Positions 1,350 through 22,601 of a stretch of 64,000 nucleotides of DNA are shown here, piece after piece. The DNA comes from Sphingomonadales bacterium. GTDB taxonomy: Bacteria; Pseudomonadota; Alphaproteobacteria; Sphingomonadales; Sphingomonadaceae. Made by a program: the position numbers and the translations under genes. Position 1 is the first letter of the stretch; each line of letters starts with the position of its first letter. The notes below the pieces were generated by a model that saw only the letters and a program-made list of their open reading frames with translations, ran no database searches and was not told where the DNA came from. The stretch spans positions 11,197 to 75,196 of the forward strand of contig JBIQKC010000009.1 of NCBI GenBank assembly GCA_044506885.1, written 5' to 3'.

Positions 1350-1365
1350 GTTTGGATGGGTCGAT

Positions 1366-2832: not shown

Positions 2833-3235
2833 CGACGAATTCCCGCCCGATGCGGAGAACCAGGAGGCCTCTTATGAGGTAGGTTACCGCAAGCCTCCCA
2901 GGCACAGCCAGTTTAAAGCAGGCAACAGGCACGGGAAAGGACGGCCGCGCGGATCCCGGAACATGAAGTCCATCGTGCGCGATGTCCTCGAAGACAAGGT
3001 TCCGGTGAAAATCAACGGTAAAACCCGCAAGGTGTCGCCCGTCGAACTCGGCCTGCGGCAATTGGTCAGGAAGGCCAATGCGGGTGACCTTAAGGCCATC
3101 TCTCAGGTCCTGACGCTCGGTGAGCGCTACAGTCCCCCTGATGACGATGGGCCCATCCCCGAGGAGGAGACCGCCTACGACCTTGATACGATAAAACACT
3201 ATTTGCTGATGCAGGGGGATTTTGGCGATGAATGA
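2825..3235 (+). CDS. DUF5681 protein (terminase small subunit-like)
   Basis: YEVGYRKPP..SQFKAG..GRPRGSRN motif; sits between the methyltransferase and the terminase with overlapping junctions. Confidence 0.8.
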   Translation: MTDDEFPPDAENQEASYEVGYRKPPRHSQFKAGNRHGKGRPRGSRNMKSIVRDVLEDKVPVKINGKTRKVSPVELGLRQLVRKANAGDLKAISQVLTLGERYSPPDDDGPIPEEETAYDLDTIKHYLLMQGDFGDE

Positions 3236-4670: not shown

Positions 4671-4685
4671 TATCCGGACGGATCA

Positions 4686-5786: not shown

Positions 5787-6637
5787 TCGGCCTGCCTCCA
5801 TTCCTCGCGATATTCGCCGACAACCCAGATGAAGCTCTGCAGATCGATATTGTCCCGGGGATTCAGCATCAGGGTGTTTCCGCGGGTTGTCTCCGTGAGA
5901 TCTAGCAGGCTCGAATAGACGGCAGGATCGAGCGCCGGCTGATAGTCATGGACGAACGGATGCCCGACGCGCGCGGCGAAATCACCGGTGACAACCGGTT
6001 TCAGGAACATGTGCTCTTCCGGACGCCAAAGGAACGGCAGATAGGTCACCACCGTCCATTTGGCGCAGTCATGCCGGGCCAGCACGGCGTTCATCGTTGC
6101 CAGCGCTTGTTCGATGTCACCTGTCGTGAACCGCGCCGCCGCCTGCACAAATATATCGGCATCAGGTCCGCGCAGCAGCGGTTGTAACCTGGTCTTCTCA
6201 TAAGGAGACAGGAGGTTTGTCCCCCGGAAGGCGGCCAGCACCGCCTCGCCATAGCCGGTTCCCGTCCGCGCCTTATCCAGCGGCGCCTGTTCATCGAGCC
6301 TGCGTTTGGCCTCAAGCTTGTAAGCGCGTTCGCTCTTGTCGAAATGCGCGGACTGGAAGCCATCGGGGAAGAAACTACGGAAGCGGGTCAGCGCCCCCTC
6401 AAACCCGAAGTAAGCGTCGCTGCTCTTGCCGACGAGCACTTTCAGCTCTCGCCATACCGCATCGGGATCCTCGCCATCGATACGCGCCTTCTGCTGGCCT
6501 GCCGTTATCAGCAGGCCAGCGAACGTCTTGCTGACGGCGACCAGCCGGAGGGTGTGCTTCCCGATTGTGTCGGTGCGAATGGTCCGGGGGACCCCGTCCG
6601 CAGATGCGACGGTCGCGCTATCATCATGTGCTGCCAT
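5783..6637 (-). CDS. Hypothetical protein translationally coupled to the nuclease gene
   Basis: 284 aa, globular; KWTVVTYLPFLW..HMFLKP and DNIDLQSFIW motifs; ATGA overlap. Confidence 0.75.
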   Translation of the reverse strand: MAAHDDSATVASADGVPRTIRTDTIGKHTLRLVAVSKTFAGLLITAGQQKARIDGEDPDAVWRELKVLVGKSSDAYFGFEGALTRFRSFFPDGFQSAHFDKSERAYKLEAKRRLDEQAPLDKARTGTGYGEAVLAAFRGTNLLSPYEKTRLQPLLRGPDADIFVQAAARFTTGDIEQALATMNAVLARHDCAKWTVVTYLPFLWRPEEHMFLKPVVTGDFAARVGHPFVHDYQPALDPAVYSSLLDLTETTRGNTLMLNPRDNIDLQSFIWVVGEYREEWRQAE

Positions 6638-6704
6638 ATTTACCTCGTGTCGACGAACAGTGACGGTGATTGACGCTTGTTCACCCCAGCGAAGTCAAGC
6701 ACGA

Positions 6705-6739
6705 ATGTCACTGATCGTCTGTAGATTGATCGTCGACAT
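6705..6739 (+). promoter_or_regulatory. C-box double operator
   Basis: ATGT-CACT-GAT-CGTC-TGTA-GATT-GAT-CGTC-GACAT, a 35-bp layout like the C.Esp1396I operator, 18 nt before the GTG. Confidence 0.75.
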
Positions 6740-6757
6740 GAGCGGCACCGTTTCGCC

Positions 6758-6961
6758 GTGGATGTCACGCAGCGCCTTGCCCGTAATCTTCGTCGCCTGC
6801 GCCAGCAGAAAGGCTGGTCGCAGGAGGAGTTTGCGTTCCGCGCGGATATTCATCGTACCTATGTCAGCGATCTGGAGCGCGGCGCGCGCAATCCCACGAT
6901 CACCGTCGTTGACAGGCTCGCGACGGCATTGGACGTCAGGCTGGGTGAACTTCTGGATTGA
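6758..6961 (+). CDS. RM controller (C) protein, XRE-family HTH
   Basis: SQEEFA..IHRTYVSDLERGARNPT; upstream C-box. Confidence 0.85.
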   Translation: MDVTQRLARNLRRLRQQKGWSQEEFAFRADIHRTYVSDLERGARNPTITVVDRLATALDVRLGELLD

Positions 6962-7063
6962 ACGCAGGAACTCCGGTTGTGCACCGGTAGAGAGGCCGTC
7001 GCGACTCGACTGCGAACAAAATGTGAACTACACCCGGATGAGCTCTTGCAGAAAGGGACGAAA

Positions 7064-7080
7064 TACGACACTGTGTCGTA
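7064..7080. promoter_or_regulatory. Perfect palindrome, putative methyltransferase autorepression operator
   Basis: TACGACAC-T-GTGTCGTA, 18 nt upstream of the ATG. Confidence 0.6.
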
Positions 7081-7098
7081 AATTGTCCTAGAGGGTAT

Positions 7099-8319
7099 AT
7101 GCTCAACGAATTTGCTGCTCTTCGTGTTCGCGCCGGCCTGTCCACAGAGGATCTGGCGCTAATGACCGGCTATAGTGTCCGGCAGGTGCAGCGCTGGGAA
7201 GCTGGTCATGGCACTCCACGGGAAGCCGCTGTCGCTTTACTGCGGTCGATGGCCCATGCCGTTCCCGGGGAGACAGGGGGGCGCTTCAATTTCATCGATC
7301 TGTTCGCCGGCATCGGGGGCATTCGCAAAGGTTTCGATGCGATTGGCGGGCACTGCGTTTTCACCTCTGAGTGGAATAAATTCGCCCAGCAGACGTATGC
7401 GGCTAATTTCCGTGACAATCATCCGCCGCACGGCGATATCACGACCATCGGCATAGATGAGATTCCGGATCATGATGTCCTGTTGGCCGGTTTCCCCTGC
7501 CAGCCTTTCTCAATTGCGGGCGTGTCCAAAAAGAACTCGCTGGGACGCAAGCATGGCTTCCTGGACGAGACCCAGGGAACGCTGTTCTTTGATGTCGCAC
7601 GCATATTGAAAGCGAAGCGGCCGGCGGCTTTTCTGCTGGAGAACGTCAAGAATTTGACCAGCCACGACAAGGGGCGCACCTTTCAGATCATATTGAAAAC
7701 ACTGACCGAAGAGCTTGGTTACAAGGTCTGGCACAAAGTAATCGACGCGCAGCATTTCGTGCCGCAGCACCGCGAACGGATTGTCATCGTCGGGTTTCGC
7801 GAGAATGTGCCGTTCAGCTGGGATGACCTGAAACTCCCGGCCAAAGGCAGTGTTCGGCTTAGAAGCGTCCTGCATCCCGAAAACGGATCCGAGACAGCGG
7901 AGGCGCCTTACACGCTCGGCCCTGATGCCGTCGTGAATGGCAAATACACGCTGACGGACAAACTCTGGCAATATCTTCAGGACTATGCCGACAAGCATAA
8001 GGCCGCCGGCAACGGGTTTGGCTTCGGTTTGGTCACGCCTAATGACGTCGCCCGCACATTGTCTGCCCGCTACTATAAGGACGGATCAGAAATCCTCGTC
8101 AGTCAGGGCAAAAAGCGTAATCCCCGTCGCCTGACGCCGCGCGAATGCGCGCGTCTGATGGGCTATGGCGATGACTTTCGTATCCCGGTCTCCGACACGC
8201 AGGCCTATAAGCAGTTCGGCAATTCAGTGGCCGTGCCTGTCTTTGAAGCGGTTGCCCGGATCATGCAGCCGCATATTCAGGCACTGACGGAGCCTGCGCG
8301 CCGACGCGAAGCTGCCTGA
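7099..8319 (+). CDS. dcm: DNA (cytosine-5)-methyltransferase, Dcm/M.EcoRII-like, with N-terminal HTH
   Basis: [47 protein letters not shown]. Confidence 0.95.
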
Positions 8320-8322
8320 GGT

Positions 8323-8775
8323 GTGGCAGACGTCCACGATACCGCGACCCGCAGCCGGAATATGGCTGCCATCAAAGGCAGCCATACAAAACCCGAACTG
8401 CTGATCCGCAGGGCTCTGCATGCTGCCGGTCTGCGCTATCGCCTGCATGCAAAGGATTTGCCGGGTAAGCCTGACCTCATCTTCCCGCGTCACAGGGCGG
8501 TAGTTTTTGTGCATGGCTGCTTTTGGCATCAGCATGACTGCCATCTGTTCAGATGGCCGGCGACGCGCACTGAGTTCTGGCGCGAGAAGATCGGCCGCAA
8601 TGTCGTCAATGATGAGCGTGCTGCCCAGTCATTGCTCGAAAACGGCTGGCGCGTCGCGCATGTCTGGGAATGCGCACTGAAAGGTCGGACCAGACTGAAC
8701 TTCGCTGACGCTATGCAACGTCTGGTCACCTGGATAGGATCGGACGAACTGACGATCACGATCAGGGGGGAATAG
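8323..8775 (+). CDS. vsr: Very short patch repair endonuclease
   Basis: RSRNMAAIK..TKPE..LPGKPD..FVHGCFWHQH..VWECAL. Confidence 0.95.
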   Translation: MADVHDTATRSRNMAAIKGSHTKPELLIRRALHAAGLRYRLHAKDLPGKPDLIFPRHRAVVFVHGCFWHQHDCHLFRWPATRTEFWREKIGRNVVNDERAAQSLLENGWRVAHVWECALKGRTRLNFADAMQRLVTWIGSDELTITIRGE

Positions 8776-10095
8776 TTGGTCGCTTCGCTTGGGCAGTTAT
8801 TGGATTTGATGCGTCATCATGGCGCGTCGCGTATCTATGCCAAAAAGCTGGCACCCAACGACAACTCCAAAAATCAGGTATATCTCGGCGGAGATTTTTC
8901 CGCGCTCAACATCATTCCCCAGGGCAATATTTATACCGATGATGCCGACGTGGCTGGCGCCTTGCGTGACCGGGCCAAGGCTGCTGTCGACTTTTACTGG
9001 ATCGATGAGGCGGGCCGTCACCATGCGCCCAATACCGGACTGATCCTCTATCCGAAATATCCGGAGGTCCGCATGTCCGGCTTCCTGCTCGGCTGCAGGG
9101 CAGCACCGGCGCATATCATGCGGGTTCGCGACGAAGGCCGCGTGCTCTTTCTCGGCATGACGCAGCAAGGTGAGGTGCTCGGCTATGCCACCACCGCTGA
9201 TGATCCCGTCACTACCCAGCTGAATTCGGGTGACTGGCCGACGGTTGGCGTCTTTCTCGAGCTGCCTCTTTCCCTGCAGCAGGCGCAAAGCCCGAAGGCG
9301 CAGTTGCTCGATGAGCTCCGCCGTATTTATCGATTGCAGTGGATCGCCTCTCAGAAACTGGCAGCCGATGGCACGAAAGCGCCTTATGCTGCCCGCAACG
9401 GCGGTGGTTACACGCTCGAGGCGGAGTTGGGCATTACCCCCAACGGTTACGCCGAGCCGGACTTCAGGGGGTGGGAGATCAAGCAATATGGCGTCAGCGA
9501 TTTTGTGAATTTCAGGCCGAGGTCACCGGTTACGCTGATGACACCGGAGCCGACCGGCGGCATTTATCGCACCGAAGGCGTCGCGGAATTTATGAGGCGC
9601 TTTGGCTATCCTGATCAGGCGGGTAGGCCTGATCGGTTCAATTTTGGTGGGCGCTATGATTGCCTGCGCTCGGCTAACCATCTGACCGGCCTCCGCATGA
9701 CGCTGACCGGTTTTGATGCGACGACCGGTAAGATCGCGGATATGGATGGTGGTCTTGCGCTGATCGATGCGGGCGAAGACATCGCCGCATCATGGACTTT
9801 CAAAGGCATGATGGCACACTGGAACCGTAAGCATGCGCAGGCTGCCTATGTGCCCTCACTGTTCCGGACACCTCCGCCGGAATATAGCTATGGCGCACAT
9901 GTGCTGCTGTGCGAACAGACCGACTTCCTGCTGTTCCTCAAAGCCTTTGCCGTCGGCGTCGTCTATTATGACCCGGCAGTGAAGATCGAAAATGCATCAT
10001 CCGACAGGCCGGTTATCAAACGGCGCAGTCAGTTCCGGGTCGCTCATGCGGAGCTGACGAGATTGTATCAGCGACATGAGGTCGTGCAGCTTTGA
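8776..10095 (+). CDS. MvaI/BcnI-family restriction endonuclease
   Basis: NDNSKNQVY, GYTLEAELGI.PNG..EPDF.GWEIKQ, TLMTPEP; lies in the dcm-vsr operon. Confidence 0.8.
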   Translation: MVASLGQLLDLMRHHGASRIYAKKLAPNDNSKNQVYLGGDFSALNIIPQGNIYTDDADVAGALRDRAKAAVDFYWIDEAGRHHAPNTGLILYPKYPEVRMSGFLLGCRAAPAHIMRVRDEGRVLFLGMTQQGEVLGYATTADDPVTTQLNSGDWPTVGVFLELPLSLQQAQSPKAQLLDELRRIYRLQWIASQKLAADGTKAPYAARNGGGYTLEAELGITPNGYAEPDFRGWEIKQYGVSDFVNFRPRSPVTLMTPEPTGGIYRTEGVAEFMRRFGYPDQAGRPDRFNFGGRYDCLRSANHLTGLRMTLTGFDATTGKIADMDGGLALIDAGEDIAASWTFKGMMAHWNRKHAQAAYVPSLFRTPPPEYSYGAHVLLCEQTDFLLFLKAFAVGVVYYDPAVKIENASSDRPVIKRRSQFRVAHAELTRLYQRHEVVQL

Positions 10096-10297: not shown

Positions 10298-10840
10298 CTA
10301 CTTTACCGGTTCGGTCGTCAATTGTGTGCGCAGCGTCCGGGGAAGCTCGAGCTGAACACCCGCGCCGGTGGCGCAGCGGTTGCAGATATTTGCTGAGTCC
10401 CGCCCAGCGAGACTGCCTTGGACGACGACGACGGCGTCGAAGCCCGCTACCGTCAGCTCTGACACGATTTGGTCGCGGAGCGTCGTATCGAGTCCGCCTA
10501 CTTTCACCATCACCGGATCACCATCATCGGCACGGCCATGAATGGCGACAACCTTCTGCGCCTCGCCCACGAGCGCAAGAGCTTGCGGTTCGTCGAACCT
10601 CGCCGATGTGATGTGCAGACTACCGCGCTTTCCCGCGGCGCGGAGCGCCTCGAAAGCGTAGAATGACAGAGTGTCACCCGCAATCGTAGCAGCTATCTCA
10701 GATGCGCCCGGTTCGATGAGGCCGCCATGCGGAGCAATTATAGCAACGGGCGTACCCCGGTTCTCAACGCGAATTCGGTAATCGACCCCAGACCTCTCGT
10801 TCGCTGCAAGCTCCTCGAAATTCGAATATCTGTCCACCAT
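10298..10840 (-). CDS. Poly-gamma-glutamate hydrolase (PghP/DUF867) family protein, possibly C-terminally clipped
   Basis: APHGG.IEPG.SE, HITSARFDEP, AIHG, NICN, GVQLEL. Confidence 0.85.
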   Translation of the reverse strand: MVDRYSNFEELAANERSGVDYRIRVENRGTPVAIIAPHGGLIEPGASEIAATIAGDTLSFYAFEALRAAGKRGSLHITSARFDEPQALALVGEAQKVVAIHGRADDGDPVMVKVGGLDTTLRDQIVSELTVAGFDAVVVVQGSLAGRDSANICNRCATGAGVQLELPRTLRTQLTTEPVK

Positions 10841-10890
10841 GCTGCGGAGCAAGCTATGCAACTGAAGGAAATTTAGCGAGGGGAAATGCG

Positions 10891-11835
10891 ATGAGACAAG
10901 GTTTGAGGATCGACGCCAACTATACGGAAGACGTCGTCGGCTTCGCCTTGGAATCTTTTCTGACCTTGTTGAGCTTTCCGCGGCAGCGCTTTTCGATTGA
11001 GCCGTTTTCGAGAGGCAAGGAGCGCTGGCTCGGCGCGGATGCACGGCTTCACGGCAAGATCCGCGGATTTCGGCCCTTCTACATGCAGTTCAAGCGGCCA
11101 GCGGCCTATCCGGATTTCAGCACCTCGAAGATCGTCACCGACCGCCGCAAGGCGGGTCTGACCACAACGCCGCGCGCCCTCTACTTCCCGCTGCGCCAAA
11201 AGCGGGAGACGCATCGCGACTTTCAGCACAATGTCCTGTTCCGATTGCGTCAACGATTGCTCAATCGCGGGCTGGGCGATGCTGCTTATGTTTGCCCGCT
11301 GTTTCTGGATCGCTCGGCCTACCGGCTCAACCTGCATTGGTCGGGTCTCGCCCGGTGGGGGCGCTTCTGGCGCCATTATCCTTGGGAAATCGAGGAGGTT
11401 CTGCTCGAAGACCGGGGGCGTTGGATTCGATTCGACCGAATGCCGGTCTTCGCAGAACATATCTCCGTGCCGCCGCACGTTGCCGTCGCCACCGCGTCAC
11501 ATAAATACAGCTTCACCGAGAACGGGACTGACCTCTGTTTTCACTCGCCTGAGGCGCTGCCGGACGGCGCGATGAACCTCGCAACATTCCTCAGCAAAGT
11601 CTCTGCCGGGTTCCTTGATGGCGGCGAGAAACTGTCTCCCGATCAATCAGACGAGATGCTGGGCGAACTGATCGCCGGCGTTTATGGCGATCAGGAGAGC
11701 ACGGCACCGACATTCCGTACAGAGGGCGAGGATCCCATTGGGCGTTGGTTCTCTTGGGGCGATCATCTCCGCAGTGAATATGCGATCGAGCAATTCGCGC
11801 TGATTAAGTGGGAGACCGAAGCTGGCCTGTTCTAG
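10891..11835 (+). CDS. Hypothetical protein, putative restriction-endonuclease-like fold
   Basis: E13..ERWLGAD..FYMQFKR resembles the E/D/QxK variant of PD-(D/E)xK. Confidence 0.65.
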   Translation: MRQGLRIDANYTEDVVGFALESFLTLLSFPRQRFSIEPFSRGKERWLGADARLHGKIRGFRPFYMQFKRPAAYPDFSTSKIVTDRRKAGLTTTPRALYFPLRQKRETHRDFQHNVLFRLRQRLLNRGLGDAAYVCPLFLDRSAYRLNLHWSGLARWGRFWRHYPWEIEEVLLEDRGRWIRFDRMPVFAEHISVPPHVAVATASHKYSFTENGTDLCFHSPEALPDGAMNLATFLSKVSAGFLDGGEKLSPDQSDEMLGELIAGVYGDQESTAPTFRTEGEDPIGRWFSWGDHLRSEYAIEQFALIKWETEAGLF

Positions 11836-12039: not shown

Positions 12040-15000
12040 ATGTCGATAGAGCCGTTCAGCGCAGCTGTGGGAAAGACCGCCCTCTCTGCCGCCGCAAAGC
12101 CGACGCTGGCGCTGTTGCGGCAGCAAATTGCGCGTCGTGGCGCGGCCTTCGCCGACCTTTCGCAGCTGTCGGGAACCGATCACGAGCTCGACGAGGCGAT
12201 TGCGGTGCTTCGCGGTACGGCAGAGAGCTTGCCGGCGAGCATCGTGCTGAAACTCAAGGGCCTCCTTTCGCAGCGGCCCGACAGCTTTGCCGATGCTGAC
12301 GCCCGACACTTCATTGATGACGATCGAGTCATCGCGCTCGTCAAATCCGGAGCCCGCAAGACCTTCGGCAATGTGGACATCGCGGACGAGCGAGCACAAG
12401 CGCGGGTCATCCATGCCGAATTGTTCGGGGAGGATGGAATTTTCGGCGAGAGGCTGATCGAGGATGCCGTTCAGTTCGCTGCCCTGACTCTGGTTGCCCA
12501 TCTCACCCCCGCTGATCGCATAGTTATTGAGTTCATTGCGGAAAAGCACGACGAGGTTCTCCAAGAGCTGCACCATATCTCCGGCCAGATTGCCGACCTA
12601 AGGCACTGGGATGGGCGCGGCTCGCCGGCCGTCGACACCAATGTGCTCGATCAAGCGCTGGCAGGCGAAGTCCGCAAGCTGCGGCGACAACGCTTCATTC
12701 ATGGCAATGAATTGGTCCCGCAAGCGCGGCAACTCGCGGCGCGTCTCGAGAACGGATTGCAGCTTGCCAGCGCCGCTGTGAGAGCCGCCGCCTATCGGGA
12801 AATCGCCATCGTCCACACCCGTGCCGACCTGCCCGACGCGGCCGAGCCGTGGATTGCGAAAGCCGAAGCGCTCGGAGCCGACGTCACGCGCGAGCGCGCC
12901 CGTGTCGCGCTCGCGCGCGGGCAGCTAGACGAAGCCATGCGGCTCGTGCGTGATCGGGATGATTCCCTCGCCAGGAGTCTTTTCATCGACGCGGTGCAGC
13001 GCCGCGATGGCGAGAGTGCCGCACTCGAATTTTACGAGCAGCAATTCGCCGGCACGGACCTGACCGGCCACGCGCTGCAATCGATGGCGGTGCGTCTGTC
13101 CAACGCCGGCCGGCCCCTCGACGCCGAAGCGCTGCTCGCCGGCGCTACATCCGAGCAGATCGACGACAACCCCGTCCTCCTTTATCTGCGGGCGCGCCTG
13201 CACATCGCTGGCGCCTTGCCCGACGATGTCGCCGAGCGTTTCCGCAAGACCGACGGCATCATCCCGCATCCTGGCGATGTGCGCGACGACGACGAAGGTC
13301 AAAGGCGGCTTGCCGCCGCGCGCGTCGACCTCCTCCAATTGAGCGAGGCGCTTTCGGACCTGGACGCCGCTGACCTCGTCAGCTTGGTCGACGTCAATCT
13401 GCTATTTCTGAACTTGAACCTCGGAACGGCGGCCGAGCGGACCCAAGCCCGAGAGCTATTGGTCGCAAGGCTTGCCGATCCGAACGAAGCGATCGAGCTC
13501 GCACCGATTGCCGCGATCTACGGCATCGATGTTGATTGGTCGGCGATCCGTGCGCGCCTCGCGCAAGCCGAGCAGCTGGGCGGCTATGATGACATGCAGT
13601 TGCGCGCCGCTTTCGCGCTCGTGATGAAGGGCGACTCCGCTAAGGAGATCGCCCACTTCATCCGCCAATATGGCGAGCGGTTGAAAGAGCAGCAGAGCCC
13701 CGAAACGATCGTGGCGATCGACATCGAGGCGCGATCGAAAAGCGGCGACATCGAAGGTGCGAAGGCCTTGCTGGCGAAAGAGCGCGCGGCGCTCGCTGAC
13801 GCCACGGCTGCCTTTCTCGACGCAACGATTGCGGAAGCCGAAGGCGCCGATTCGATCGGCCTGCGCCTGGTGCAGTATGAAGCGTCCGGCTCTACGCACG
13901 ACCTCCAGATTCTGGTGGCAGTGCTCGGCGAAGCCGGCGATGACCGTTTAGGCGACTATCTCATCGAACTCTGGCGGCGGCGCCATCAGATCGAGGATGC
14001 GCGGCGTGCCTGCGACGTGCTGGTGCGCACCGGCAAGGAACACACCGCCGAGGCTTTTCTCGAGGAGTTAGGGGATCTCGCGCGGCAGGATAGCCATTTG
14101 CACGCGCACTTGGCGTGGGGCCGCTTGCGGCAGGGGCAGCTCCTGGATGCCGTCGCCGAACTCAAGGCACTCGGCGACGCGGGGGTCGACAATCACAACA
14201 CGCGACAGCTGACTATCGTCCTGGCGATCGAGACCGGCCGCTGGTCCGAGTTGGAGCCGTTCCTTCAGAAAGAGCTGGCCGCGCAGGCTGATCGTTCGGG
14301 TGCCGAGCTCATGTCTCTCGCCCACATCGCGCAGGCGATCGACAGCCCGACGACCATGGCGCTCGTGCGCGCCGCCATCGCGAAGGCGCCCGACGATCCG
14401 GTGCTCAATATGAACGGTTACACCATTGCGGTGGAGGCAGGGTTCGAGCGCAACGCCGAAGTCAACGGATGGTTTGGCCGCGCGATCGCCGGATCGACCG
14501 AGGACGGTCCGATCTATTCGAAGGATTTCGATGACGTCATCGAGATGGTGAAGGATTCGCGCGCGCAATCCGAGCGCGTGAACGAGCTGGTGAACACGGC
14601 GGAGGTGCCCATCTTCCTGGCGCTCGGGCAGCTGCGAGGGGCCCAAAGCGCGCTGATGCTGCTGCAAATGCCGCAGAATGCCGAGGAAACCGACGGTCGA
14701 CGAAAGTCCGTCCTGCCGCTGTTTGCCGGCAATCGGCCTCAGGCCAGCGATGTCGTCCCAACATCCATCGCCTTTGACCCGCTTGCATTGCTGGTGCTCG
14801 ACTATCTCGGGCTGTTGCGATCTGCGATCGACGCATTCGACGAGGTGATCCTGCCGGCCGGAACGCTCCACAGCTTCTTCGAGGACCGCGGCCGATCGGG
14901 GCCGTCTCAACCGAGCCGGATCGACCAGGCCCGCGAAATCAAGGATCGCGCGGCTTCGGGAACGCTCACGGTGGAAGCGCTTCCCGTGGTGGACGCCGAT

Positions 15001-16311
15001 CTTGCCGCGCTGGTCGGGGAGGAGTTAGCGCGCCTCTATGCGGCCGCGGTCGAACGCGACGGCTATGTGATCGACACAGCCCCGCTTCATCCGCCCGGTA
15101 AGCTCCACGAGACGGTCAATCCCGCGCCCTTCGCCGCACGGCTGGTCAGCCCGGCCGGACTCGTTCAATCGCTCCTCGCCGCCGGGACGTTGAGCCAGTC
15201 GCGCGCGACAAGCGCGGTCGCGATGGTCGGCGGCAGCGGACCCGCCTGGCCGGATGAGGTCTCGCCGCTGGGCGGCAAGCCGATGTTCCTCACCGGCCTC
15301 GCCGTGCAATATCTCTCCGACGCCGGTCTGCTCCCGATCCTCAAGAACCACGGCGGCACGCTGACGGTGCTGCCTGACGTCATCGAGCTGGCCGATCGCG
15401 AGATCGCGGCCGGCCAGGCGTCGCAAAAGGTGCGTCAAGGGATCGAGCGCGTTCGCGAAACGCTTGCGGAGGCGATCACCCAGCGCCGGGTGCGGGTCGG
15501 TCCGACCCGCCTCCGACGCGACGAACTGGAAGGCGGCGAGGAGGATCAACCGCTTCGGCGCAACATGGGACCCGTGGTGAGCGCCCTTCGCGATTCCGGC
15601 GGCGTGGAAGCCTTCGTGTGCGACGATCGCGCCATGAACAAATATCTCCAGTTCACCGATCACCAAGGTCGGCAGGTGCCGTTCCTGACGACCCCGGACC
15701 TGCTGCGCATCCTGCACGACAAGGGCGTGATTGATACGCCCGCGCTGGCCGCTGCAAGGGAGAAGCTGAGGATCGCCGGTGCCGGCCTGATGCCGCTCGA
15801 CCCGCTCGAACTCGTCGAAGCGGCGCAGGCCAGCAACTGGGCCGTCGGTCCCAATGCCGAGCTGCGCGCGATCCGCGATTCCATCCATCTGCCGCTGGCG
15901 CGCAAGATCCTTCAGCTGCCGCAGGAACGGCCCTGGCTCAAGGCGATGTGCCTCGGCATCGCGTTCGCGATCCGCCGCGTCTGGCAGGAACTGGACGATC
16001 CGGTCATGGCCGAGCGCGCGGCGACCTATCTTCTCGACATGATCCCGGACGCGGAAGCCTGGAGCGCCGCGGATGAATCGCCCGACCGCGGCCTGTGGGT
16101 CCAGGACGTGTTCCGGCACACGCTGTGGGCGATCGCCTCCATCTTCGACCTGCCGGGCGAGCGTACCGACATTTTTCAGCGATGGTTCGACACCCAGGTC
16201 GCGCCGGACGCAGCACGACGCGATCCCGGCGCAATGGAAGCCATTGCCCGGACTCTGTTCGGCTTTTTGACCACCCCCCTTGCTGAGGACGCCGGCAATG
16301 ACGGCGAATGA
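12040..16311 (+). CDS. 1423 aa alpha-solenoid (TPR-like) protein with C-terminal PIN-like region
   Basis: Long helical Ala/Leu-rich body; IAFDPLALLVL..LGLL; FVCDDRAM..FLTTPDLL..L..KGVI. Confidence 0.75.
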   Translation: MSIEPFSAAVGKTALSAAAKPTLALLRQQIARRGAAFADLSQLSGTDHELDEAIAVLRGTAESLPASIVLKLKGLLSQRPDSFADADARHFIDDDRVIALVKSGARKTFGNVDIADERAQARVIHAELFGEDGIFGERLIEDAVQFAALTLVAHLTPADRIVIEFIAEKHDEVLQELHHISGQIADLRHWDGRGSPAVDTNVLDQALAGEVRKLRRQRFIHGNELVPQARQLAARLENGLQLASAAVRAAAYREIAIVHTRADLPDAAEPWIAKAEALGADVTRERARVALARGQLDEAMRLVRDRDDSLARSLFIDAVQRRDGESAALEFYEQQFAGTDLTGHALQSMAVRLSNAGRPLDAEALLAGATSEQIDDNPVLLYLRARLHIAGALPDDVAERFRKTDGIIPHPGDVRDDDEGQRRLAAARVDLLQLSEALSDLDAADLVSLVDVNLLFLNLNLGTAAERTQARELLVARLADPNEAIELAPIAAIYGIDVDWSAIRARLAQAEQLGGYDDMQLRAAFALVMKGDSAKEIAHFIRQYGERLKEQQSPETIVAIDIEARSKSGDIEGAKALLAKERAALADATAAFLDATIAEAEGADSIGLRLVQYEASGSTHDLQILVAVLGEAGDDRLGDYLIELWRRRHQIEDARRACDVLVRTGKEHTAEAFLEELGDLARQDSHLHAHLAWGRLRQGQLLDAVAELKALGDAGVDNHNTRQLTIVLAIETGRWSELEPFLQKELAAQADRSGAELMSLAHIAQAIDSPTTMALVRAAIAKAPDDPVLNMNGYTIAVEAGFERNAEVNGWFGRAIAGSTEDGPIYSKDFDDVIEMVKDSRAQSERVNELVNTAEVPIFLALGQLRGAQSALMLLQMPQNAEETDGRRKSVLPLFAGNRPQASDVVPTSIAFDPLALLVLDYLGLLRSAIDAFDEVILPAGTLHSFFEDRGRSGPSQPSRIDQAREIKDRAASGTLTVEALPVVDADLAALVGEELARLYAAAVERDGYVIDTAPLHPPGKLHETVNPAPFAARLVSPAGLVQSLLAAGTLSQSRATSAVAMVGGSGPAWPDEVSPLGGKPMFLTGLAVQYLSDAGLLPILKNHGGTLTVLPDVIELADREIAAGQASQKVRQGIERVRETLAEAITQRRVRVGPTRLRRDELEGGEEDQPLRRNMGPVVSALRDSGGVEAFVCDDRAMNKYLQFTDHQGRQVPFLTTPDLLRILHDKGVIDTPALAAAREKLRIAGAGLMPLDPLELVEAAQASNWAVGPNAELRAIRDSIHLPLARKILQLPQERPWLKAMCLGIAFAIRRVWQELDDPVMAERAATYLLDMIPDAEAWSAADESPDRGLWVQDVFRHTLWAIASIFDLPGERTDIFQRWFDTQVAPDAARRDPGAMEAIARTLFGFLTTPLAEDAGNDGE

Positions 16312-18280
16312 ATCGAACCTATCGCCCGAAGAGGAAGTACGCGCGTTGCTGGCCAGCACGATACCGAAGCTGCCTGAGGCGGTTCGCACGATCATGTTGG
16401 CCGATCCTGCGGTTTTGACCGCGCTTGGCCTGCCCACGGGCGATTTCGTCCGGATATGGAGTCGCCGGTTCAGCCGGTCCGAGCTTTTCGCATGTCTTCG
16501 CCACATCGCCAACGACGTCGCCGTGCCGCTCGTCTCGGCCGACGGCGAGATCGAGGTCGAAGAAGTCTGGCTGGACGAGGATGGCGCGGGTGTCCTGCGC
16601 AGCGGCAGCGAAGCAGCCCGTTTCGCCAATGTCGCCGTCCTGAGCGACGATTTCGCGCGCCGGTCATCGGCGATCGATGCCATCGTCGCCAGTGGCGAAA
16701 TGTCGTCGGAGCGCGAGGGCATTTGGCGCGCGGCGATCGCCATGGGGCCTCTCGACGACGCGCTTTACCTGGCGCTGGAAACCGAGCTCGGCGCCAGCCC
16801 CGAAACCGCCTTTCGTTCGATGGCGCACGACATCGGCGAGGGCAGTGCCAAATTCGATGATCTCGTTCCCGTCGATCTCAACCACTATGCGGGTCTGCTT
16901 GGCCTGTTTCCGCCACCGCAGACATTGGCGGAATTCAGAACGGCTTGGCTTGCTGCCGCTGAAGCGCTCGACGACACCCGCCTTCTTCGTCTCCTCAAGT
17001 TGAGCGGCCCGCTCTCACTCCTTTCCGGAGCTCTCGTCGCTCAAGCGAGCGACCGCCTTCCTGCGACCGATCGCGTGGCATTGGCACATTTTCTCGCGGC
17101 CGCTCCCGATCCCTTCAGCGTCATCGCGGCCTTTGAAGTTGCATGCCGCCACCGGGGCGATCCGGCGATGCAGGCAATCGGTGACGCGCTTGCGCCTCGC
17201 CTGCTGGATCGCTCGGACCCGCTGATCGAAGTTGCCAGCCCGGCGCTCAAGGCCACGCTTGCAATAACGACCGCGATCACCGCGCGTCATCGAACGCTCG
17301 CCGATTGGCCGCTCTACGCGAAGCGGTTGGTGCGGATCGTACACGCAAGCCATCTCCTGCGTCTCTTCCGGACGGCGAATGTCGATCCGGCGATTTTCGA
17401 GGATCAAGTCATGCGAGGCTTCGCACCGCAGGCCAGGCTGGCCGACCTCTGTGATGCTCGGGAGGCCCCGCTCTGGCAACCCAACCACTTCGTGCCGGCG
17501 GCGGTCCATGCCCTTTCCATGGCGCGCATGACGGCCGCAGCGTCGAAGCTTGATGAGAGCGATATTCCCCCGGCCTGGCTGACCGCGGGAGAAACCGCTC
17601 TTGCAGGCGATGTCGAAGCGGGTTGGGGCCTGTTCCTGTTTGCGCCGTCACCGCTCGACGAGCTGGACGGCCAGTGGACGGGACCAACGATCCTCACGCC
17701 CGAGAACGCGGAAGAAGCGTGCCAGGTACTCGAAGCCGGCGAGGATCCCGAACGCTGTTTGAGCGAGCTGATAAAGCTGTCGGTCGCATTCGAGGTGCCG
17801 CCCGATCGGCGTGACGTGCTTGGCGCGGCACTTCCCGCATTGCTCAAACGGCTTGACGGAGCGAACTTCATGAACGCCGGCGAAATCGCCCTGCAGCTCG
17901 CCGCCCGATGGCGCGACGAGGCGCTTTCCGACCGGATCGTCGACGTCCTCCTGGAGCGGGCGCGCGGCGATGGTCTTCCCGACGCTGCTGGTGCGCCGCG
18001 GCTAACGATGCTTGCCGCTGCCGCCGAGGAGGATCGAGCGCGTTGGCTGCAACGGGCCGGCAATGTGGCCCAGCATTTCGCCTATGTGCAGAAGAGCGGC
18101 TCAGCCTCGATCAATCTTCTGCGCGCGCTGGAGCTGCTCCGCGACTTCGAACCCGATCTCGGTCCCCAAATCGCTTCAGCTAAGGCGTACACTGTCCTGA
18201 CGTTCGATCGGCTTCCACGGGCTACGCCTGCGGACTCGTCAAGCATAGACGCTGATGATGCCGCGGGCGATCTGGACTGA
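16298..18280 (+). CDS. ~660 aa helical hypothetical protein, partner of the upstream gene
   Basis: GAGGA RBS and ATG overlapping the end of the upstream gene by 14 nt. Confidence 0.75.
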   Translation: MTANESNLSPEEEVRALLASTIPKLPEAVRTIMLADPAVLTALGLPTGDFVRIWSRRFSRSELFACLRHIANDVAVPLVSADGEIEVEEVWLDEDGAGVLRSGSEAARFANVAVLSDDFARRSSAIDAIVASGEMSSEREGIWRAAIAMGPLDDALYLALETELGASPETAFRSMAHDIGEGSAKFDDLVPVDLNHYAGLLGLFPPPQTLAEFRTAWLAAAEALDDTRLLRLLKLSGPLSLLSGALVAQASDRLPATDRVALAHFLAAAPDPFSVIAAFEVACRHRGDPAMQAIGDALAPRLLDRSDPLIEVASPALKATLAITTAITARHRTLADWPLYAKRLVRIVHASHLLRLFRTANVDPAIFEDQVMRGFAPQARLADLCDAREAPLWQPNHFVPAAVHALSMARMTAAASKLDESDIPPAWLTAGETALAGDVEAGWGLFLFAPSPLDELDGQWTGPTILTPENAEEACQVLEAGEDPERCLSELIKLSVAFEVPPDRRDVLGAALPALLKRLDGANFMNAGEIALQLAARWRDEALSDRIVDVLLERARGDGLPDAAGAPRLTMLAAAAEEDRARWLQRAGNVAQHFAYVQKSGSASINLLRALELLRDFEPDLGPQIASAKAYTVLTFDRLPRATPADSSSIDADDAAGDLD

Positions 18281-19260: not shown

Positions 19261-19797
19261 ATGACCAAAACCCTACGCCTCAACGACCTTCAGCTCATCC
19301 TTCTTTCGACCGCCGCGCTGCGCGACGACGGCAGCCTGCTGCCGCCACCGGACAGCATCGGCGAACGTACACCCGTGGTCGACAAGGCCATCAAATCCCT
19401 CCTCCGGCGCGGTCTGGCGGCGGAACCCGATGCATCGAATGTCAGCGATCCTCTCCCAACAGATCGTGATCGTCTGGTCGGTGTTCGGATCACCGCCGCT
19501 GGCCGGGTCGCCATTGGCGCAGATCAGGACGAAGAAGAGGATCGGTCATCCGAAGATCCCGATGAGCAGTCGCGTCCCGAGGCAGAATCTTCATCCCGCC
19601 CGGTCAGCAAGATCGGCACGGTGCTGTCACTCCTTCGGCGCGATGAGGGCGCCACGCTCGACGAGATGGTCGCGGCCACTGGCTGGCTGCCACACACCAC
19701 CCGCGCCGCGCTGACCGGCCTGCGGAAGAAAGGCCATGCCGTCGTGAAGGACAAGCGCGGCGATACGACCTGCTATCGCATCACCATGGAGGCATGA
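19261..19797 (+). CDS. DUF3489 domain protein
   Basis: SKIGTVLSLLRRDEGATLDEMVAATGWLPHTTRAALTGLRKKG; AGGAG RBS. Confidence 0.88.
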   Translation: MTKTLRLNDLQLILLSTAALRDDGSLLPPPDSIGERTPVVDKAIKSLLRRGLAAEPDASNVSDPLPTDRDRLVGVRITAAGRVAIGADQDEEEDRSSEDPDEQSRPEAESSSRPVSKIGTVLSLLRRDEGATLDEMVAATGWLPHTTRAALTGLRKKGHAVVKDKRGDTTCYRITMEA

Positions 19798-20216
19798 TCG
19801 TGGCCGGGCTCGATCATGCGATGCGGGACATCGCGGGCATGTCCCGCACCGAGCTACAGGACCGGTGGGCAAAGCTCACCGGTCGCCCGGTGCCTCGACT
19901 CAGCGTTGCCATGCTGCGGCTCGCTCTGGGCTACGAGATACAGGCCCGGGCGAAGGGCGGCCTGTCGCGCGCTGCCCGGCACCAGCTGGACGGATCGGGT
20001 GATGCTCGCCCGCGTGCGATGCCGCTCACGCCCGGTCTGCGGCTGGTGCGCGAATGGCAGGGCAAAGTGCATGTCGTCACTGTCGATGACGCCGGCGCGA
20101 TCCACTGGAACGGGCAGCGCTGGAAAAGCCTCAGCGAGGTGGCGCGCGCCATCACCGGTACGCGCTGGTCAGGCCCCGCCTTCTTCGGCCTCAAACAGCG
20201 AAAGGCAGTGGCATGA
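19794..20216 (+). CDS. DUF2924 domain protein
   Basis: PGLRLVREWQG..SLSEVARAITGTRWSGPAFFGL. Confidence 0.9.
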   Translation: MIVAGLDHAMRDIAGMSRTELQDRWAKLTGRPVPRLSVAMLRLALGYEIQARAKGGLSRAARHQLDGSGDARPRAMPLTPGLRLVREWQGKVHVVTVDDAGAIHWNGQRWKSLSEVARAITGTRWSGPAFFGLKQRKAVA

Positions 20217-21874
20217 AGAAGGTCCGCTGCGCGATCTACACGCGCAAATCGAGTGAGGAAGGTCTCGAGCAGGACTTCAACTCGCTCCATGCCCAGCGTG
20301 AGGCCTGCGCCGCCTATATCCTCAGCCAGGCCTCCGAAGGCTGGACGCTGCTGCCAGACGAATATGATGACGGTGGATTGTCGGGTGGGACGCTGGAGCG
20401 ACCGGCGCTCCGGCGGCTGATGAGGGACATCGAGGCCGACAGGATCGACATCGTGGTCGTCTACAAGGTCGACCGGCTGAGCCGCTCGCTGCTCGACTTC
20501 GCGAAGCTGGTCGAGACCTTCGACAAGGCGAACGTATCCTTCGTCTCGGTGACCCAGTCCTTCAACACGACCAACAGCATGGGCCGGCTCACGCTCAACA
20601 TGCTGCTCTCCTTCGCCCAGTTCGAACGCGAGGTCACCGCCGAGCGCATCCGCGACAAGATCGCCGCATCCAAGGCTCGCGGCATGTGGATGGGCGGGAA
20701 CCCGCCGCTCGGCTACAAGCCCGATGGCAGGACGCTGGCGATCGTCGATGAGCATGCCGGGATCGTGCGACACATCTTCGCGCGCTACCTCGATCTGGGA
20801 AATGTTCGCCTGGTTGCCGGCGAGCTGGCCAGCGAGGGCATCCTCGCCCCGCAACGCACCGCCGCCACCGGGAGGATGACAGGTGGCCGTCCGTTCACCC
20901 GGGGGCAGATCTACAAGCTCCTCTCCAATCCCATCTACATCGGCGAGATCCATCACAAGGGGCAGGTCCATGCCGGAAAGCATGAGGCGATCATCGATCG
21001 TGCAAGCTGGGACAGCGTCCAGCGGATGCTTGCCGCCAATCTGCAGGGCGAGAGGTCAGGTAGCAGGGCACAGTCGCCCAGCCTGCTTGCGGGCCGCATC
21101 TTCGATCGGCACGGCGAGCCGTTGGTCGCCGTCCATGCCTGCAAAGGGAAAGTCCGCTATCGTTACTATGTGAGCCGGTCACTCCAGCATGACGCAGACC
21201 GGCAGGCCACTAATGGCCTGCGTATCCCAGCGCTGGAGATCGAGGCGGCCGTCAGCCAGCTTCTGGCGGAAGCGCTCGATGATCCGCTATCGCTGCTCGC
21301 GCAAGCAGGGATACCGCTCGAAAGCGATCGTCTGCGCATGATCCTCAAACAGGCCGAGCAGCTGGCAGCTTCCATCCGCGGCAGGCATCGCGATACGATC
21401 CGCAAGCTTGTGGCGAAGGTTAGTGTCCAGCCAGATGAGTTAGCACTCGAACTGTCAGTTATGGCGCTATGTACATCTTGGGCTGTCGAGGCCTCTGCAG
21501 GTACACAGACCTCGATCCTGCTTAACTCGCCGGTCCGTCTGACCCGCACCGGTCGGGCCATCCGGCTGGTCCAGCGCGATGGCCGACCGGCCTCACAGGG
21601 CAGGCCCGATCCCGGCCTCGTCGCGTTGCTGCGCAAGGGACACAGCTGGTGGCAACAGCTTCAGACCGGCATGATCGACATCGCCACCATCGCCCGCGAG
21701 GAAAAGGTCAACGACTCCTGGGTGTCGCGCCTCGTCCGACTGAACTTTCTCGCGCCCGCGATCGTCGAAGCCATCCTCGCCGGGACCCAGACCGCCTCGG
21801 TCAGCGTAACATCTCTACGCACCGCCAATCTGCCGATCGACTGGGACGAGCAGATCGTCCTGTTCGGAATGTGA
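20213..21874 (+). CDS. Large serine recombinase
   Basis: AIYTRKSS, SGG..ERP.L, VYKVDRLSRS, QFEREV..ERI, recombinase domain LSNPIYIG. Confidence 0.95.
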   Translation: MKKVRCAIYTRKSSEEGLEQDFNSLHAQREACAAYILSQASEGWTLLPDEYDDGGLSGGTLERPALRRLMRDIEADRIDIVVVYKVDRLSRSLLDFAKLVETFDKANVSFVSVTQSFNTTNSMGRLTLNMLLSFAQFEREVTAERIRDKIAASKARGMWMGGNPPLGYKPDGRTLAIVDEHAGIVRHIFARYLDLGNVRLVAGELASEGILAPQRTAATGRMTGGRPFTRGQIYKLLSNPIYIGEIHHKGQVHAGKHEAIIDRASWDSVQRMLAANLQGERSGSRAQSPSLLAGRIFDRHGEPLVAVHACKGKVRYRYYVSRSLQHDADRQATNGLRIPALEIEAAVSQLLAEALDDPLSLLAQAGIPLESDRLRMILKQAEQLAASIRGRHRDTIRKLVAKVSVQPDELALELSVMALCTSWAVEASAGTQTSILLNSPVRLTRTGRAIRLVQRDGRPASQGRPDPGLVALLRKGHSWWQQLQTGMIDIATIAREEKVNDSWVSRLVRLNFLAPAIVEAILAGTQTASVSVTSLRTANLPIDWDEQIVLFGM

Positions 21875-21960
21875 TGAATCACCGCGAGTCACGATACCTG
21901 CGGCGCTTCGGCGCCGCTTTGCGCTTCCGGACCAGCAGAAGCAGTCCATGCTGCAACCTC

Positions 21961-22146
21961 ACTCTGTACCGCCAAAATGGCCGACAGAGAAAAGGCCGTC
22001 GGAGCGACCAATTGTTGCTCCAGCTACGCTCTCCGCAGACCGTACCATCTCCGCAAGCGGCGCGGAACCACGCGCCTTTCGGCAAGAGGAAAAATAATTC
22101 TATATCGATGACTTATGTATGGCGGAGGGAAAGAGATTCGAAACTC
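21961..22146. repeat. Imperfect direct repeat copy A (att arm plus degenerate tRNA 3' end)
   Basis: Shares GAGCGACCAA.TGTTGCTCCAG.TACGCTCTCCGCAGACCG..CTCCGCAA.CGGCGCGGAAC and TGGCGGAG..GATTCGAA with copy B. Confidence 0.85.
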
Positions 22147-22352
22147 CAGACTGGAGTCGTGTAACCCACGGAAATCACGCGATAATATAGGCCTGCATCC
22201 GCCAATCCGGTCTGTGTCGCAGACCTCCTGCCAGGCAATAAGTCCGCACCGAGAGATTTCCGTGCTCTGCAACAGATCGGTTCCAGGATTACCATCTCTG
22301 GTGGATCGGAGCCCTCCCGCGATCGCGCGCATGATGCACCATCGCTCCGGCC

Positions 22353-22537
22353 ACTCCGTACTGCCGAAATGAGCGACGGAGAAAAAGCCGTTAGAGCGAC
22401 CAAATGTTGCTCCAGATACGCTCTCCGCAGACCGGAGCACCTCCGCAAACGGCGCGGAACTGCGCCACTTTTCGGAGCATTTTCCTTTTATATCAAAGAC
22501 TTAGATATATGTGGCGGAGAGGGTGGGATTCGAACCC
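22353..22537. repeat. Imperfect direct repeat copy B, running into the tRNA-Ser 3' end
   Basis: Aligned by eye with 21961-22146. Confidence 0.85.
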
Positions 22538-22601
22538 ACGTTACGGTTGCCCGTAAACCGCATTTCGAGTGCGGCGCATTCGACCTCTCTGCCACCTCTC
22601 C
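22512..22601 (-). tRNA. tRNA-Ser(CGA)
   Basis: 90 nt; GGAGAGG acceptor stem, CCGCA-CTCGAAA-TGCGG anticodon arm, long variable arm, GGTTCGAATCC, encoded CCA. Confidence 0.97.

What the first reader, a model, noticed from the sequence alone, without database searches (positions are those of the whole stretch)
12040..18280. Candidate undescribed anti-phage system: giant helical-repeat/tandem-PIN-like protein plus coupled ~660 aa partner
Seen: a 1423 aa gene whose first ~870 aa look alpha-solenoid with no Walker A motif. Two PIN-like openings follow (SIAFDPLALLVLDYLGLL..EVILP and MFLTGLAVQYLSDAGLL..LTVLP), then a PIN-like closing (FVCDDRAM..FLTTPDLLRIL..KGVI). It overlaps a second all-helical gene with no recognisable motif, and both sit among RM and nuclease cargo. 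Known: TPR sensors coupled to PIN RNases occur in predicted conflict systems. Inference: an NTPase-independent sensor-RNase with a regulatory partner. I cannot match the pair to a named system, but cannot exclude one without a search.
Basis: partly seen in the sequence, partly recalled or inferred. Interest (0 to 1): 0.76.

Follow-up and report, generated by a model that had tools for sequence, protein, structure and literature searches.

The report
Split double-PIN TGP-like antiphage system
Two overlapping genes in a mobile defence island are the two halves of one large, likely anti-phage protein (repeat scaffold, a predicted RNA-cutting site built from two PIN domains, and a predicted RNA-polymerase-binding domain); it is an apparently untested sister of the known TPR-GreA/B-C-PIN defence family rather than a new kind of system.

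Summary
The genes and motifs are real. The "partner" is not an unrelated regulator. It is the C-terminal third of a ~2,050-aa protein that is fused in other bacteria and split at the same point here. It is also not all-helical: its N-terminus carries a permuted GreA/B-C domain (Pfam PF24388 above cut-off in homologues, sub-threshold here).

The pair reads: swappable N-terminal effector, TPR, HTH (PF24407 "upstream of double PIN"), two PINs, helical domain // permuted GreA/B-C, alpha-solenoid. This is a rearranged sister of the TPR-GreA/B-C-PIN (TGP) systems, whose member Bab/Agp is validated against phage. Both Pfam names show the class was already spotted computationally. I found no experimental test in the library searched.

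Added here:
(1) The AlphaFold model, residue conservation and weak covariation suggest the PINs are nested, giving one composite active site (D913 + D1195/D1196/N1200).
(2) Split and fused forms are interspersed across the family tree.
(3) Homologues swap HNH, restriction-nuclease, TIR, PNP, lipase and Schlafen domains into the N-terminal slot, which here holds a helical domain with a MEPIS-like start.

Verdict: new variant of a known kind, likely anti-phage.

The parts
12040..16311 (+). ORF1, 1423 aa: N-terminal effector slot + TPR + HTH + nested double PIN + helical domain
   Evidence: 73 homologues, about 50 of them ~1,420 aa long
12040..12609 (+). ORF1 aa 1-190: N-terminal domain of no Pfam family in the swappable effector slot; starts with a MEPIS-like motif (Bell/Hell/NNH-like, lead only)
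   Evidence: other effectors at this position; NNH2 0.87, lead, on homologue P0010; motif in 28 of 55 vs 0 of 114
12637..14526 (+). ORF1 aa ~200-829: TPR-like alpha-solenoid, predicted sensor/scaffold
   Evidence: TPR/PPR PDB hits; Pfam TPR in homologues
14527..14736 (+). HTH_upst_double_PIN (PF24407), aa 830-899
   Evidence: 62.2 bits vs cut-off 27
14755..14979 (+). PIN first half N1 (aa ~906-980) with D913 (14776-14778) and D949
   Evidence: position 913 acidic in 100% (D 92, E 8) of 214 weighted sequences
15007..15180 (+). degenerate PIN second half Cx (aa ~990-1047), lacks the DD motif
   Evidence: positions 1012-1013 mostly R/P in the family
15277..15504 (+). second PIN first half N2 (aa ~1080-1155); T1085 where 85% of the family has Asp
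15565..15774 (+). PIN second half Cy (aa ~1176-1245) with D1195, D1196, R1197, N1200; predicted to pair with N1 as the single complete active site
   Evidence: (95, 98, 100, 97% conserved)
16298..18280 (+). ORF2, 660 aa (666 from TTG 16280): split-off C-terminal third of the fused ~2,050-aa form; overlaps the ORF1 stop by 14 nt
16445..16624 (+). beta-rich permuted GreA/B-C-like domain (PF24388; direct match 16463-16549, sub-threshold)
16652..18205 (+). ORF2 helical and HEAT-like alpha-solenoid region of no named family
7099..10095 (+). neighbouring type II RM cassette: HTH-Dcm, Vsr, MvaI/BcnI endonuclease (island context, not part of the system)
19794..21874 (+). DUF2924 + large serine recombinase of the carrying element
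22512..22601 (-). tRNA-Ser(CGA), likely integration site bounding the lower-GC island (61.8% over 1-22000 vs 67.2% genome)

Best explanation
The two genes are the split halves of one protein family (variable effector - TPR - HTH - double PIN - helical // permuted GreA/B-C - solenoid) that likely re-assemble into an anti-phage sensor-effector complex working like the TGP systems.

Shown: the architecture, the fused and split forms, effector swapping, and island location.

Predicted from models: the two PINs are nested, so N1 (D913, D949) and Cy (D1195, D1196, N1200) form one complete RNase site. The inner Cx+N2 unit is degenerate and would act as a built-in dimer partner or RNA-binding surface. 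ORF1 and ORF2 are predicted to bind each other.

Inferred by analogy with Bab/Agp and the Kaur model: the complex stays quiet until the TPR solenoid and/or the GreA/B-C domain on ORF2 detects a phage protein or phage-hijacked RNA polymerase. It would then cleave RNA with the composite PIN and/or release the N-terminal effector, here probably a membrane-acting helical domain, causing abortive infection.
For: Fusion: ORF2 matches aa 1427-2061 of the 2,062-aa P0021 at 49% identity. An ORF2 profile matches 31 of 43 long-tailed family members.
Pairing: an ORF2 homologue lies directly downstream in 15 of 16 GTDB loci; the 16th ends at a contig edge. It is also downstream in 3 further split loci.
GreA/B-C: PF24388 is above its 27-bit cut-off in L029 (39.6), L030 (31.7) and P0129 (28.4). 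HHalign maps that stretch onto window ORF2. The only PF24388 match at E<=10 in the whole own genome falls in ORF2 (E 0.037).
PIN fold: best hit SMG6 PIN 2dok, Z 9.0, rmsd 3.2, 131 aligned. All 7 top-50 rows titled PIN/VapC start at model residue 124-129 and end at 438-487, so they join N1 to Cy.
Composite site: D913 and DDRxxN are near-invariant, while Cx lacks DD and this clade has lost the N2 Asp. Strand covariation z is 4.8/3.5 for swapped vs 2.0/3.2 for unswapped pairings (positive controls 4.4-6.1, negative 1.6-3.1).
Effector slot: Pfam TIR, PNP, SMEK, DUF4365, Schlafen, DUF676 lipase and bDLD3, plus sub-threshold HNH and Mrr.
Context: clear defence genes in 9 of 23 other loci (IetAS, Shango, CBASS E1-E2/CapP, EcoRII, Hma, type I RM, PDC-M65, MksE, SIR2/HsdR).
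Patchy: 0 of 100 relatives, 5 of 400 phylum genomes.
Complex: weak support, 0.56 vs best control 0.00; runs agree in at least 91% of contacts; partner pLDDT at least 79. The mark was reached by 116 of 157 solved and 2 of 215 mismatched pairs, but at 0.60 or under by only 18 solved and both passing mismatches.
Precedent: GreA/B-C and PIN mutants of Agp lose T5 defence (passages).
Against: No experiment exists for this class in what I could search. PF24388 and PF20698 are below cut-off in the window's own proteins, so GreA/B-C function may be degenerate. I did not test RNA polymerase binding, and a permuted domain need not keep that surface. PIN Z 9.0 is only slightly above the 7-8 typical of chance best hits, and Foldseek found nothing at E<=0.001. 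I saw only aligned ranges, not coordinates, so nesting is read indirectly. Covariation is shallow (Neff ~180), and two of its top eight pairs are N2-Cy or N1-Cx (1087-1221, 945-1038). Nine of 23 loci show no defence hit and 5 show only TA-like or weak hits. Only hand-picked ORFs were scanned and there is no background control. In Bab/Agp the authors found no Bab-independent activity of Agp, and the PIN mutant was destabilised, so RNase activity as the killing step is not established even there.
Confidence: 0.62

Rival explanations
1. The double PIN is a non-cutting sensor or scaffold, and defence comes only from the swappable N-terminal effector. The constant core detects infection and oligomerises, much as Agp triggers Bab.
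For: The effector slot is highly diverse. Agp showed no Bab-independent activity (passages). The inner PIN is degenerate.
Against: Acidic residues D913, D1195, D1196, plus R1197 and N1200, are 95-100% conserved across 214 sequences, which is hard to explain without catalysis or metal binding. Many members appear to have little or no effector ahead of the TPR (PIN profile starting at aa ~660).
Confidence: 0.17
2. A toxin-antitoxin-like addiction module: ORF1 is a PIN toxin held in check by ORF2, stabilising the integrated element rather than blocking phage.
For: Two translationally coupled genes, a PIN domain, frequent location on ICEs, plasmids and integrated elements.
Against: ORF2 is fused to ORF1 in 43 of 217 family proteins, which is incompatible with a labile antitoxin. 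The size, the TPRs and the swapped immune effectors (TIR, bDLD3, PNP) point to immunity.
Confidence: 0.08
3. The two PINs fold as ordinary tandem domains (N1+Cx, N2+Cy). In this Sphingomonadales clade both would lack a full catalytic set, so the local copy is RNase-dead.
For: By sequence, Pfam PF20698 aligns N2+Cy as one domain in many homologues. T1085 replaces the family Asp here. Covariation has some N2-Cy and N1-Cx pairs.
Against: No top-50 structural row is confined to model residues 127-290 or 301-460. D913 stays acidic family-wide although its unswapped partner half lacks DD.
Confidence: 0.1
4. The split is a frameshifted pseudogene or an assembly error of a single gene.
For: A C6 run sits just upstream of the junction, and the ORF2 frame is open across it. 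A close relative (P0021) is fused.
Against: The same split occurs in about 50 homologues at 42-97% identity. ORF2 has an ATG/GTG within 26 nt before the ORF1 stop in 17 of 18 other loci. The C run is not conserved.
Confidence: 0.03

Closest known systems
TPR-GreA/B-C-PIN (TGP) conflict systems, Kaur et al. 2021, PMC8195603 (passages and supplement searches read)
   Same: Variable N-terminal effector (REase, HNH, PNPase, TIR among those listed) on a constant TPR core with a GreA/B-C domain and the same PIN family (PF20698 above cut-off in many homologues); no NTPase.
   Different: Here there are two PINs preceded by an HTH. The GreA/B-C is permuted and lies after the PINs. About 650 extra residues follow, and the protein is commonly split into two genes. 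The supplement search for PIN+PIN gave only one row (MBI4846278.1, 2,304 aa); file 13 was not searched.
Bab/Agp of E. coli ECOR25 (bioRxiv 10.1101/2024.11.07.622273; section 4 and passages read)
   Same: Validated TGP-type abortive-infection system; needs GreA/B-C and PIN integrity; effector is a Bell-type helical domain whose N-terminal motif (MEPIS) resembles the start of ORF1.
   Different: Bab is a separate 109-aa gene activated through an amyloid motif. Here the helical domain is fused to the sensor. Agp is 1,094 aa with one PIN. No amyloid motif was looked for here.
Pfam PF24407 HTH_upst_double_PIN and PF24388 Permuted_GreAB-C
   Same: These models match ORF1 directly and ORF2 homologues, so the family was already recognised computationally.
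   Different: Domain models only. I recall (unverified) that this Pfam batch comes from Nicastro et al. 2023 NAR, which the library does not hold. What it says about nesting, splitting or function is unknown to me.
GAPS6 (bioRxiv 10.1101/2023.03.28.534373; passages read)
   Same: Validated two-gene system with a TPR + PINc protein.
   Different: There the TPR-PIN protein is the second gene; here it is first and followed by the GreA/B-C-solenoid gene. Sequences could not be compared.
DS-3 (PMC13092281; passages read) and the SMG5-SMG6 composite PIN site (PMC13182599; search listing only)
   Same: Precedents for a PIN split in sequence that defends against phage, and for a catalytic site shared between two PIN domains.
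   Different: DS-3 is a one-protein system; SMG5/6 are eukaryotic and act in trans. Analogy only; no homology tested beyond the PIN fold.

Membership tests
TGP (TPR-GreA/B-C-PIN) | TPR repeats in the constant core | tested here: met
   (E 7e-7 to 1e-3); Pfam TPR in homologues
TGP (TPR-GreA/B-C-PIN) | PIN of the PF20698 family | tested here: met
   sub-threshold in the window (20.1 vs 27.8 bits), above cut-off in homologues (up to 54.9 bits); PIN fold in model
TGP (TPR-GreA/B-C-PIN) | canonical GreA/B-C domain between TPR and a single C-terminal PIN | tested here: not met
   No GreA_GreB Pfam hit in ORF1; an HTH sits there instead. A permuted GreA/B-C lies after two PINs, on ORF2.
TGP (TPR-GreA/B-C-PIN) | variable N-terminal effector | tested here: met
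TGP (TPR-GreA/B-C-PIN) | RNA polymerase binding and phage defence | not testable with these tools
   needs experiment
double-PIN / permuted-GreAB-C family (PF24407 + PF24388) | PF24407 upstream of two PIN units | tested here: met
double-PIN / permuted-GreAB-C family (PF24407 + PF24388) | PF24388 downstream of the PINs | tested here: met
   Met through homology: above cut-off in aligned homologues. The window copy itself scores 15.8 vs 27 bits at the equivalent place.
GAPS6 | sequence homology to GAPS6a/6b | not testable with these tools
   reference sequences not retrievable; no model in the libraries held
GAPS6 | TPR-PINc protein is the second gene | tested here: not met
   paper passage vs gene order here
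STAND NTPase systems (Avs, bNACHT) | P-loop NTPase module | tested here: not met
   no Walker A pattern; no NTPase hit in Pfam, PADLOC or NCBIfam
Bell/Hell/NNH N-terminal helical effectors | MEPIS-like N-terminal motif and helical bundle | tested here: inconclusive
   Motif in 28 of 55 intact members vs 0 of 114 others, but kin are not independent. Atlas NNH2 0.87 with 144 shared features is a lead only. No Pfam hit; the domain was not folded.

The most novel reading that the evidence does not exclude
A widespread (about 1,500 clusters at 50% identity) NTPase-free immune receptor. A separately encoded subunit with a permuted GreA/B-C domain monitors RNA polymerase and switches on a composite RNase site built by domain-swapping two PINs inside one chain, plus a fused Bell-like membrane effector. 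This would make it a single-chain bacterial counterpart of the two-PIN composite site of SMG5-SMG6 and a direct way to test whether bacteria sense phage take-over of RNA polymerase.
Probability: 0.22. Interest if true: 0.75.

Novelty: new variant of a known kind. Interest (0 to 1): 0.5.

Why it matters
TGP systems are the main candidates for sensing hijacked host RNA polymerase, and their trigger is still open even in the validated Bab/Agp case. This sister class moves the GreA/B-C domain onto a separable gene. Sensing, RNase and effector can therefore be deleted independently in a natural arrangement. It is large (1,474 clusters at E<=1e-10) and has no model in PADLOC 2.0 or NCBIfam, so it is missed in defence inventories built on them. 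A nested double PIN with one composite site would be an unusual RNase architecture.

Tried and rejected
- PADLOC and NCBIfam: no hit for either gene at E<=0.1.
- Foldseek PDB: nothing at E<=0.001 for either model.
- VIA-align of ORF2 gave only generic HEAT/designed repeats (Z<=10.5), and its N-terminal domain was barely tested. The GreA/B-C fold is therefore not structurally confirmed.
- Atlas on ORF2 homologue P0082: only hits <=0.82 (DUF6138, ZorC EH), not used.
- PDB sequence search with the ORF2 alignment was dominated by the TPR parts of fused rows.
- Phage collection: no match.
- Programmed +1 frameshift: ORF2 is in the +1 frame in 18 of 19 loci, but the C6 run is unique to the window, so rejected as a conserved mechanism. 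The shared phase does make one-base fusions easy.
- Fusion/fission count: 20 changes on a 168-tip FastTree vs shuffled mean 31, minimum 26. Many nodes are weakly supported and 'split' was assigned from protein length, so no direction or exact number is claimed.
- The upstream 314-aa gene is not found in other loci, so it is not part of the system.
- Promoter scan: 0 sites; terminator-like sites at chance level.
- Sequencing runs: only contigs. The one RNA run holds scattered pieces at ~98% identity and shows nothing on expression. No independent listed contig bridges the junction.
- Earlier scan findings: none.
- Literature: searches listed no paper on a double-PIN or permuted-GreA system (listings capped at 15-30 rows). 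Burroughs and Aravind 2020 and Nicastro 2023 are not held and may describe it.
Full report
OBSERVATION. ORF1 (12040-16311, 1423 aa) and ORF2 (to 18280) exist as described. All quoted motifs are in place and neither protein has a Walker A pattern. ORF2 most likely starts at ATG 16298, overlapping the ORF1 stop by 14 nt. The pair lies in a lower-GC island (61.8% vs 67.2% for the genome). The island holds a ParB-methylase/terminase block, a Dcm-Vsr-MvaI/BcnI cassette, DUF3489, DUF2924 and a serine recombinase, and ends at tRNA-Ser 22512-22601. The closest named homologues are from Sphingomonadales.

ONE PROTEIN IN TWO GENES. A search with ORF1 aa 780-1423 returned 73 proteins among 7,995 scored candidates; about 50 are ~1,420 aa and others ~2,000-2,080 aa. 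ORF2 aligns to the tail of the long forms, for example P0021 aa 1427-2061 at 49% identity. Among 236 fetched proteins, 217 carried the PIN region: 168 of split length, 43 with a long tail and 6 other. An ORF2 profile matched 31 of the 43; the 12 misses are one distant group. An ORF2 homologue follows ORF1 directly in 15 of 16 GTDB loci, and the last one ends at a contig edge. It also follows in L024, L029 and L030. Fused forms are scattered over the tree (20 changes vs 31 for shuffled labels, with weak node support). ORF2 sits in the +1 frame in 18 of 19 loci, so one-base changes could interconvert the forms. No slippery site is conserved. The split is therefore natural, not a pseudogene. Complex prediction of ORF1 aa 900-1415 with most of ORF2 gave weak support: 0.56 vs best control 0.00, at least 91% contact agreement, partner pLDDT at least 79. 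The mark was reached by 116 of 157 solved and 2 of 215 mismatched pairs, but at 0.60 or under by only 18 solved and both passing mismatches. The guess was likely beforehand because of the fusions.

DOMAINS. ORF1 has TPR/PPR-like repeats, PF24407 HTH_upst_double_PIN at aa 830-899 (E 5.7e-17) and a weak PF20698 PIN-TPR-GreABC hit; PF20698 passes its cut-off in many homologues. The ORF2 model (pLDDT 89.3) has a beta-rich unit at aa 56-115 before a long helical region. Homologues of that unit pass the cut-off of PF24388 Permuted_GreAB-C. Ten of 24 members of the ORF2 alignment hit it at E<=1, best 0.0023. HHalign puts the L029 stretch in register with window ORF2. The single PF24388 match in the whole own genome is inside ORF2, though sub-threshold. 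The GreA/B-C name rests on Pfam; I did not confirm that fold structurally.

THE DOUBLE PIN. The model of ORF1 aa 780-1423 is confident (pLDDT 89.6, pTM 0.84). Foldseek found nothing. VIA-align ranks PIN domains first (2dok Z 9.0, rmsd 3.2, 131 aligned), which is only modestly above background. All 7 rows titled PIN or VapC, and 11 more that I recognise from my own knowledge as PIN-fold chains, span model residues ~121-129 to 438-487. That joins the first opening half (N1) to the last closing half (Cy); no row is confined to either tandem unit. Conservation over 214 sequences fits this. Position 913 is always acidic, D1195/D1196/R1197/N1200 are 95-100% conserved, the first closing half lacks DD, and the second opening Asp (85% in the family) is Thr here. 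Without swapping, both PINs in this clade would be incomplete. Covariation leans the same way for the central strands (4.8 and 3.5 vs 2.0 and 3.2) but is shallow, has contrary pairs and is not independent of the model's inputs. Nesting is thus predicted, not shown.

EFFECTOR SLOT AND CONTEXT. The N-terminal ~200-300 residues vary. Pfam TIR, PNP, SMEK, DUF4365, Schlafen, DUF676 lipase and bDLD3 pass cut-off, and HNH and Mrr hit below it (a chosen subset of proteins). In L028 a PNP-bDLD3 gene precedes a bDLD3-headed fused protein, the adaptor logic described by Kaur et al. Here the slot holds a domain of no Pfam family. It begins with a [DE]P-hydrophobic-[ST] motif in 28 of 55 intact members against 0 of 114 other family members. 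This is like the MEPIS motif of Bell-type membrane effectors, and the Atlas gives NNH2 as a lead. Of 23 other loci, 9 have clear defence neighbours, 5 only TA-like or weak hits and 9 none; several of those 9 carry conjugation or mobilisation genes. Only hand-picked ORFs were scanned and no background was computed. Distribution is patchy: 0 of 100 relatives with ORF2 as query, 5 of 400 phylum genomes and 0 of 14 controls with PF24407, 3 plasmids, no phage. The profile search finds 1,955, 1,474 and 822 clusters at E<=1e-3, 1e-10 and 1e-30; the weakest may include canonical TGP PINs.

MECHANISM. Most likely (0.62) the halves assemble into an NTPase-free receptor. TPR and/or GreA/B-C would sense infection, the composite PIN would cut RNA and the N-terminal domain would add abortive death. 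Architecture, pairing and context are shown. Nesting and binding are predicted. Sensing, RNase activity and defence are inferred from TGP precedent. Kaur et al. proposed that GreA/B-C engages RNA polymerase and PIN cleaves the transcript (PMC8195603, passages). In Bab/Agp, GreA/B-C and PIN mutants lose T5 resistance, although the PIN mutant was unstable and Agp alone was inactive. The rivals are a non-catalytic sensor (0.17), unswapped dead PINs (0.10), an addiction module (0.08) and a pseudogene (0.03).

NOVELTY. It works like a TGP system but fails the canonical domain order, so I do not file it as one. It is a member of the family that Pfam PF24407/PF24388 already describe. The Kaur supplement search shows one PIN+PIN row; file 13 was not searched. 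Ten literature searches listed no study of this class. Two Aravind-group papers that may describe it were unavailable, and bioRxiv supplements were not seen. PMC12803255 and PMC12419801 (term searches) do not mention PIN or GreA; the bNACHT preprint passages only define NNH. Verdict: new variant of a known kind, probably untested, interest 0.5.

Noticed in passing
window 10891-11835 (+): 314-aa gene just upstream of ORF1 with no Pfam, PADLOC or NCBIfam hit. By eye it has a PD-(D/E)xK-like spacing (E..., GADA, MQFK). Not found in the other loci.
   Followed up: partly
window 10298-11044 (-): Poly-gamma-glutamate hydrolase (PF05908, E 5e-54), a family I recall as phage-associated, lying antisense inside the defence island.
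   Followed up: no
window 4686-5801 and 5783-6637 (-): Two-gene unit: a 371-aa protein hitting PADLOC candidate PDC-S11 (E 4e-15) and a 284-aa protein with no hit.
   Followed up: partly
window 1228-4670 (+): ParB-DNA methylase, DUF5681 and a terminase large subunit split into two ORFs (3222-4193, 4233-4670): prophage-remnant block of the tRNA-Ser element.
   Followed up: no
window ~21960-22080 and 22351-22470: Imperfect 120-bp direct repeat (84% identity) between the recombinase and tRNA-Ser.
   Followed up: no
L028:561-1703 and 1729-7512: PNP-bDLD3 gene upstream of a bDLD3-headed fused homologue: a death-like-domain-coupled version of this system.
   Followed up: partly
L003:2140-9628 (+): Three co-oriented genes (813 aa with weak HSDR_N, 347 aa, 1,347 aa with no hit) directly upstream of a homologue; possible unnamed defence operon.
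   Followed up: no
L009:4287-8747 (-): 1,487-aa ORF with no Pfam or PADLOC hit near a homologue.
   Followed up: no
L012:9137-13493: ORF1 homologue broken into 406-aa and 1,048-aa frames near a run of A; a frameshift or assembly error in that genome.
   Followed up: no
L029:3961-9547 (+): Four-gene MksE-containing condensin-like cassette with a WYL regulator directly upstream of a split homologue; no PADLOC hit.
   Followed up: no
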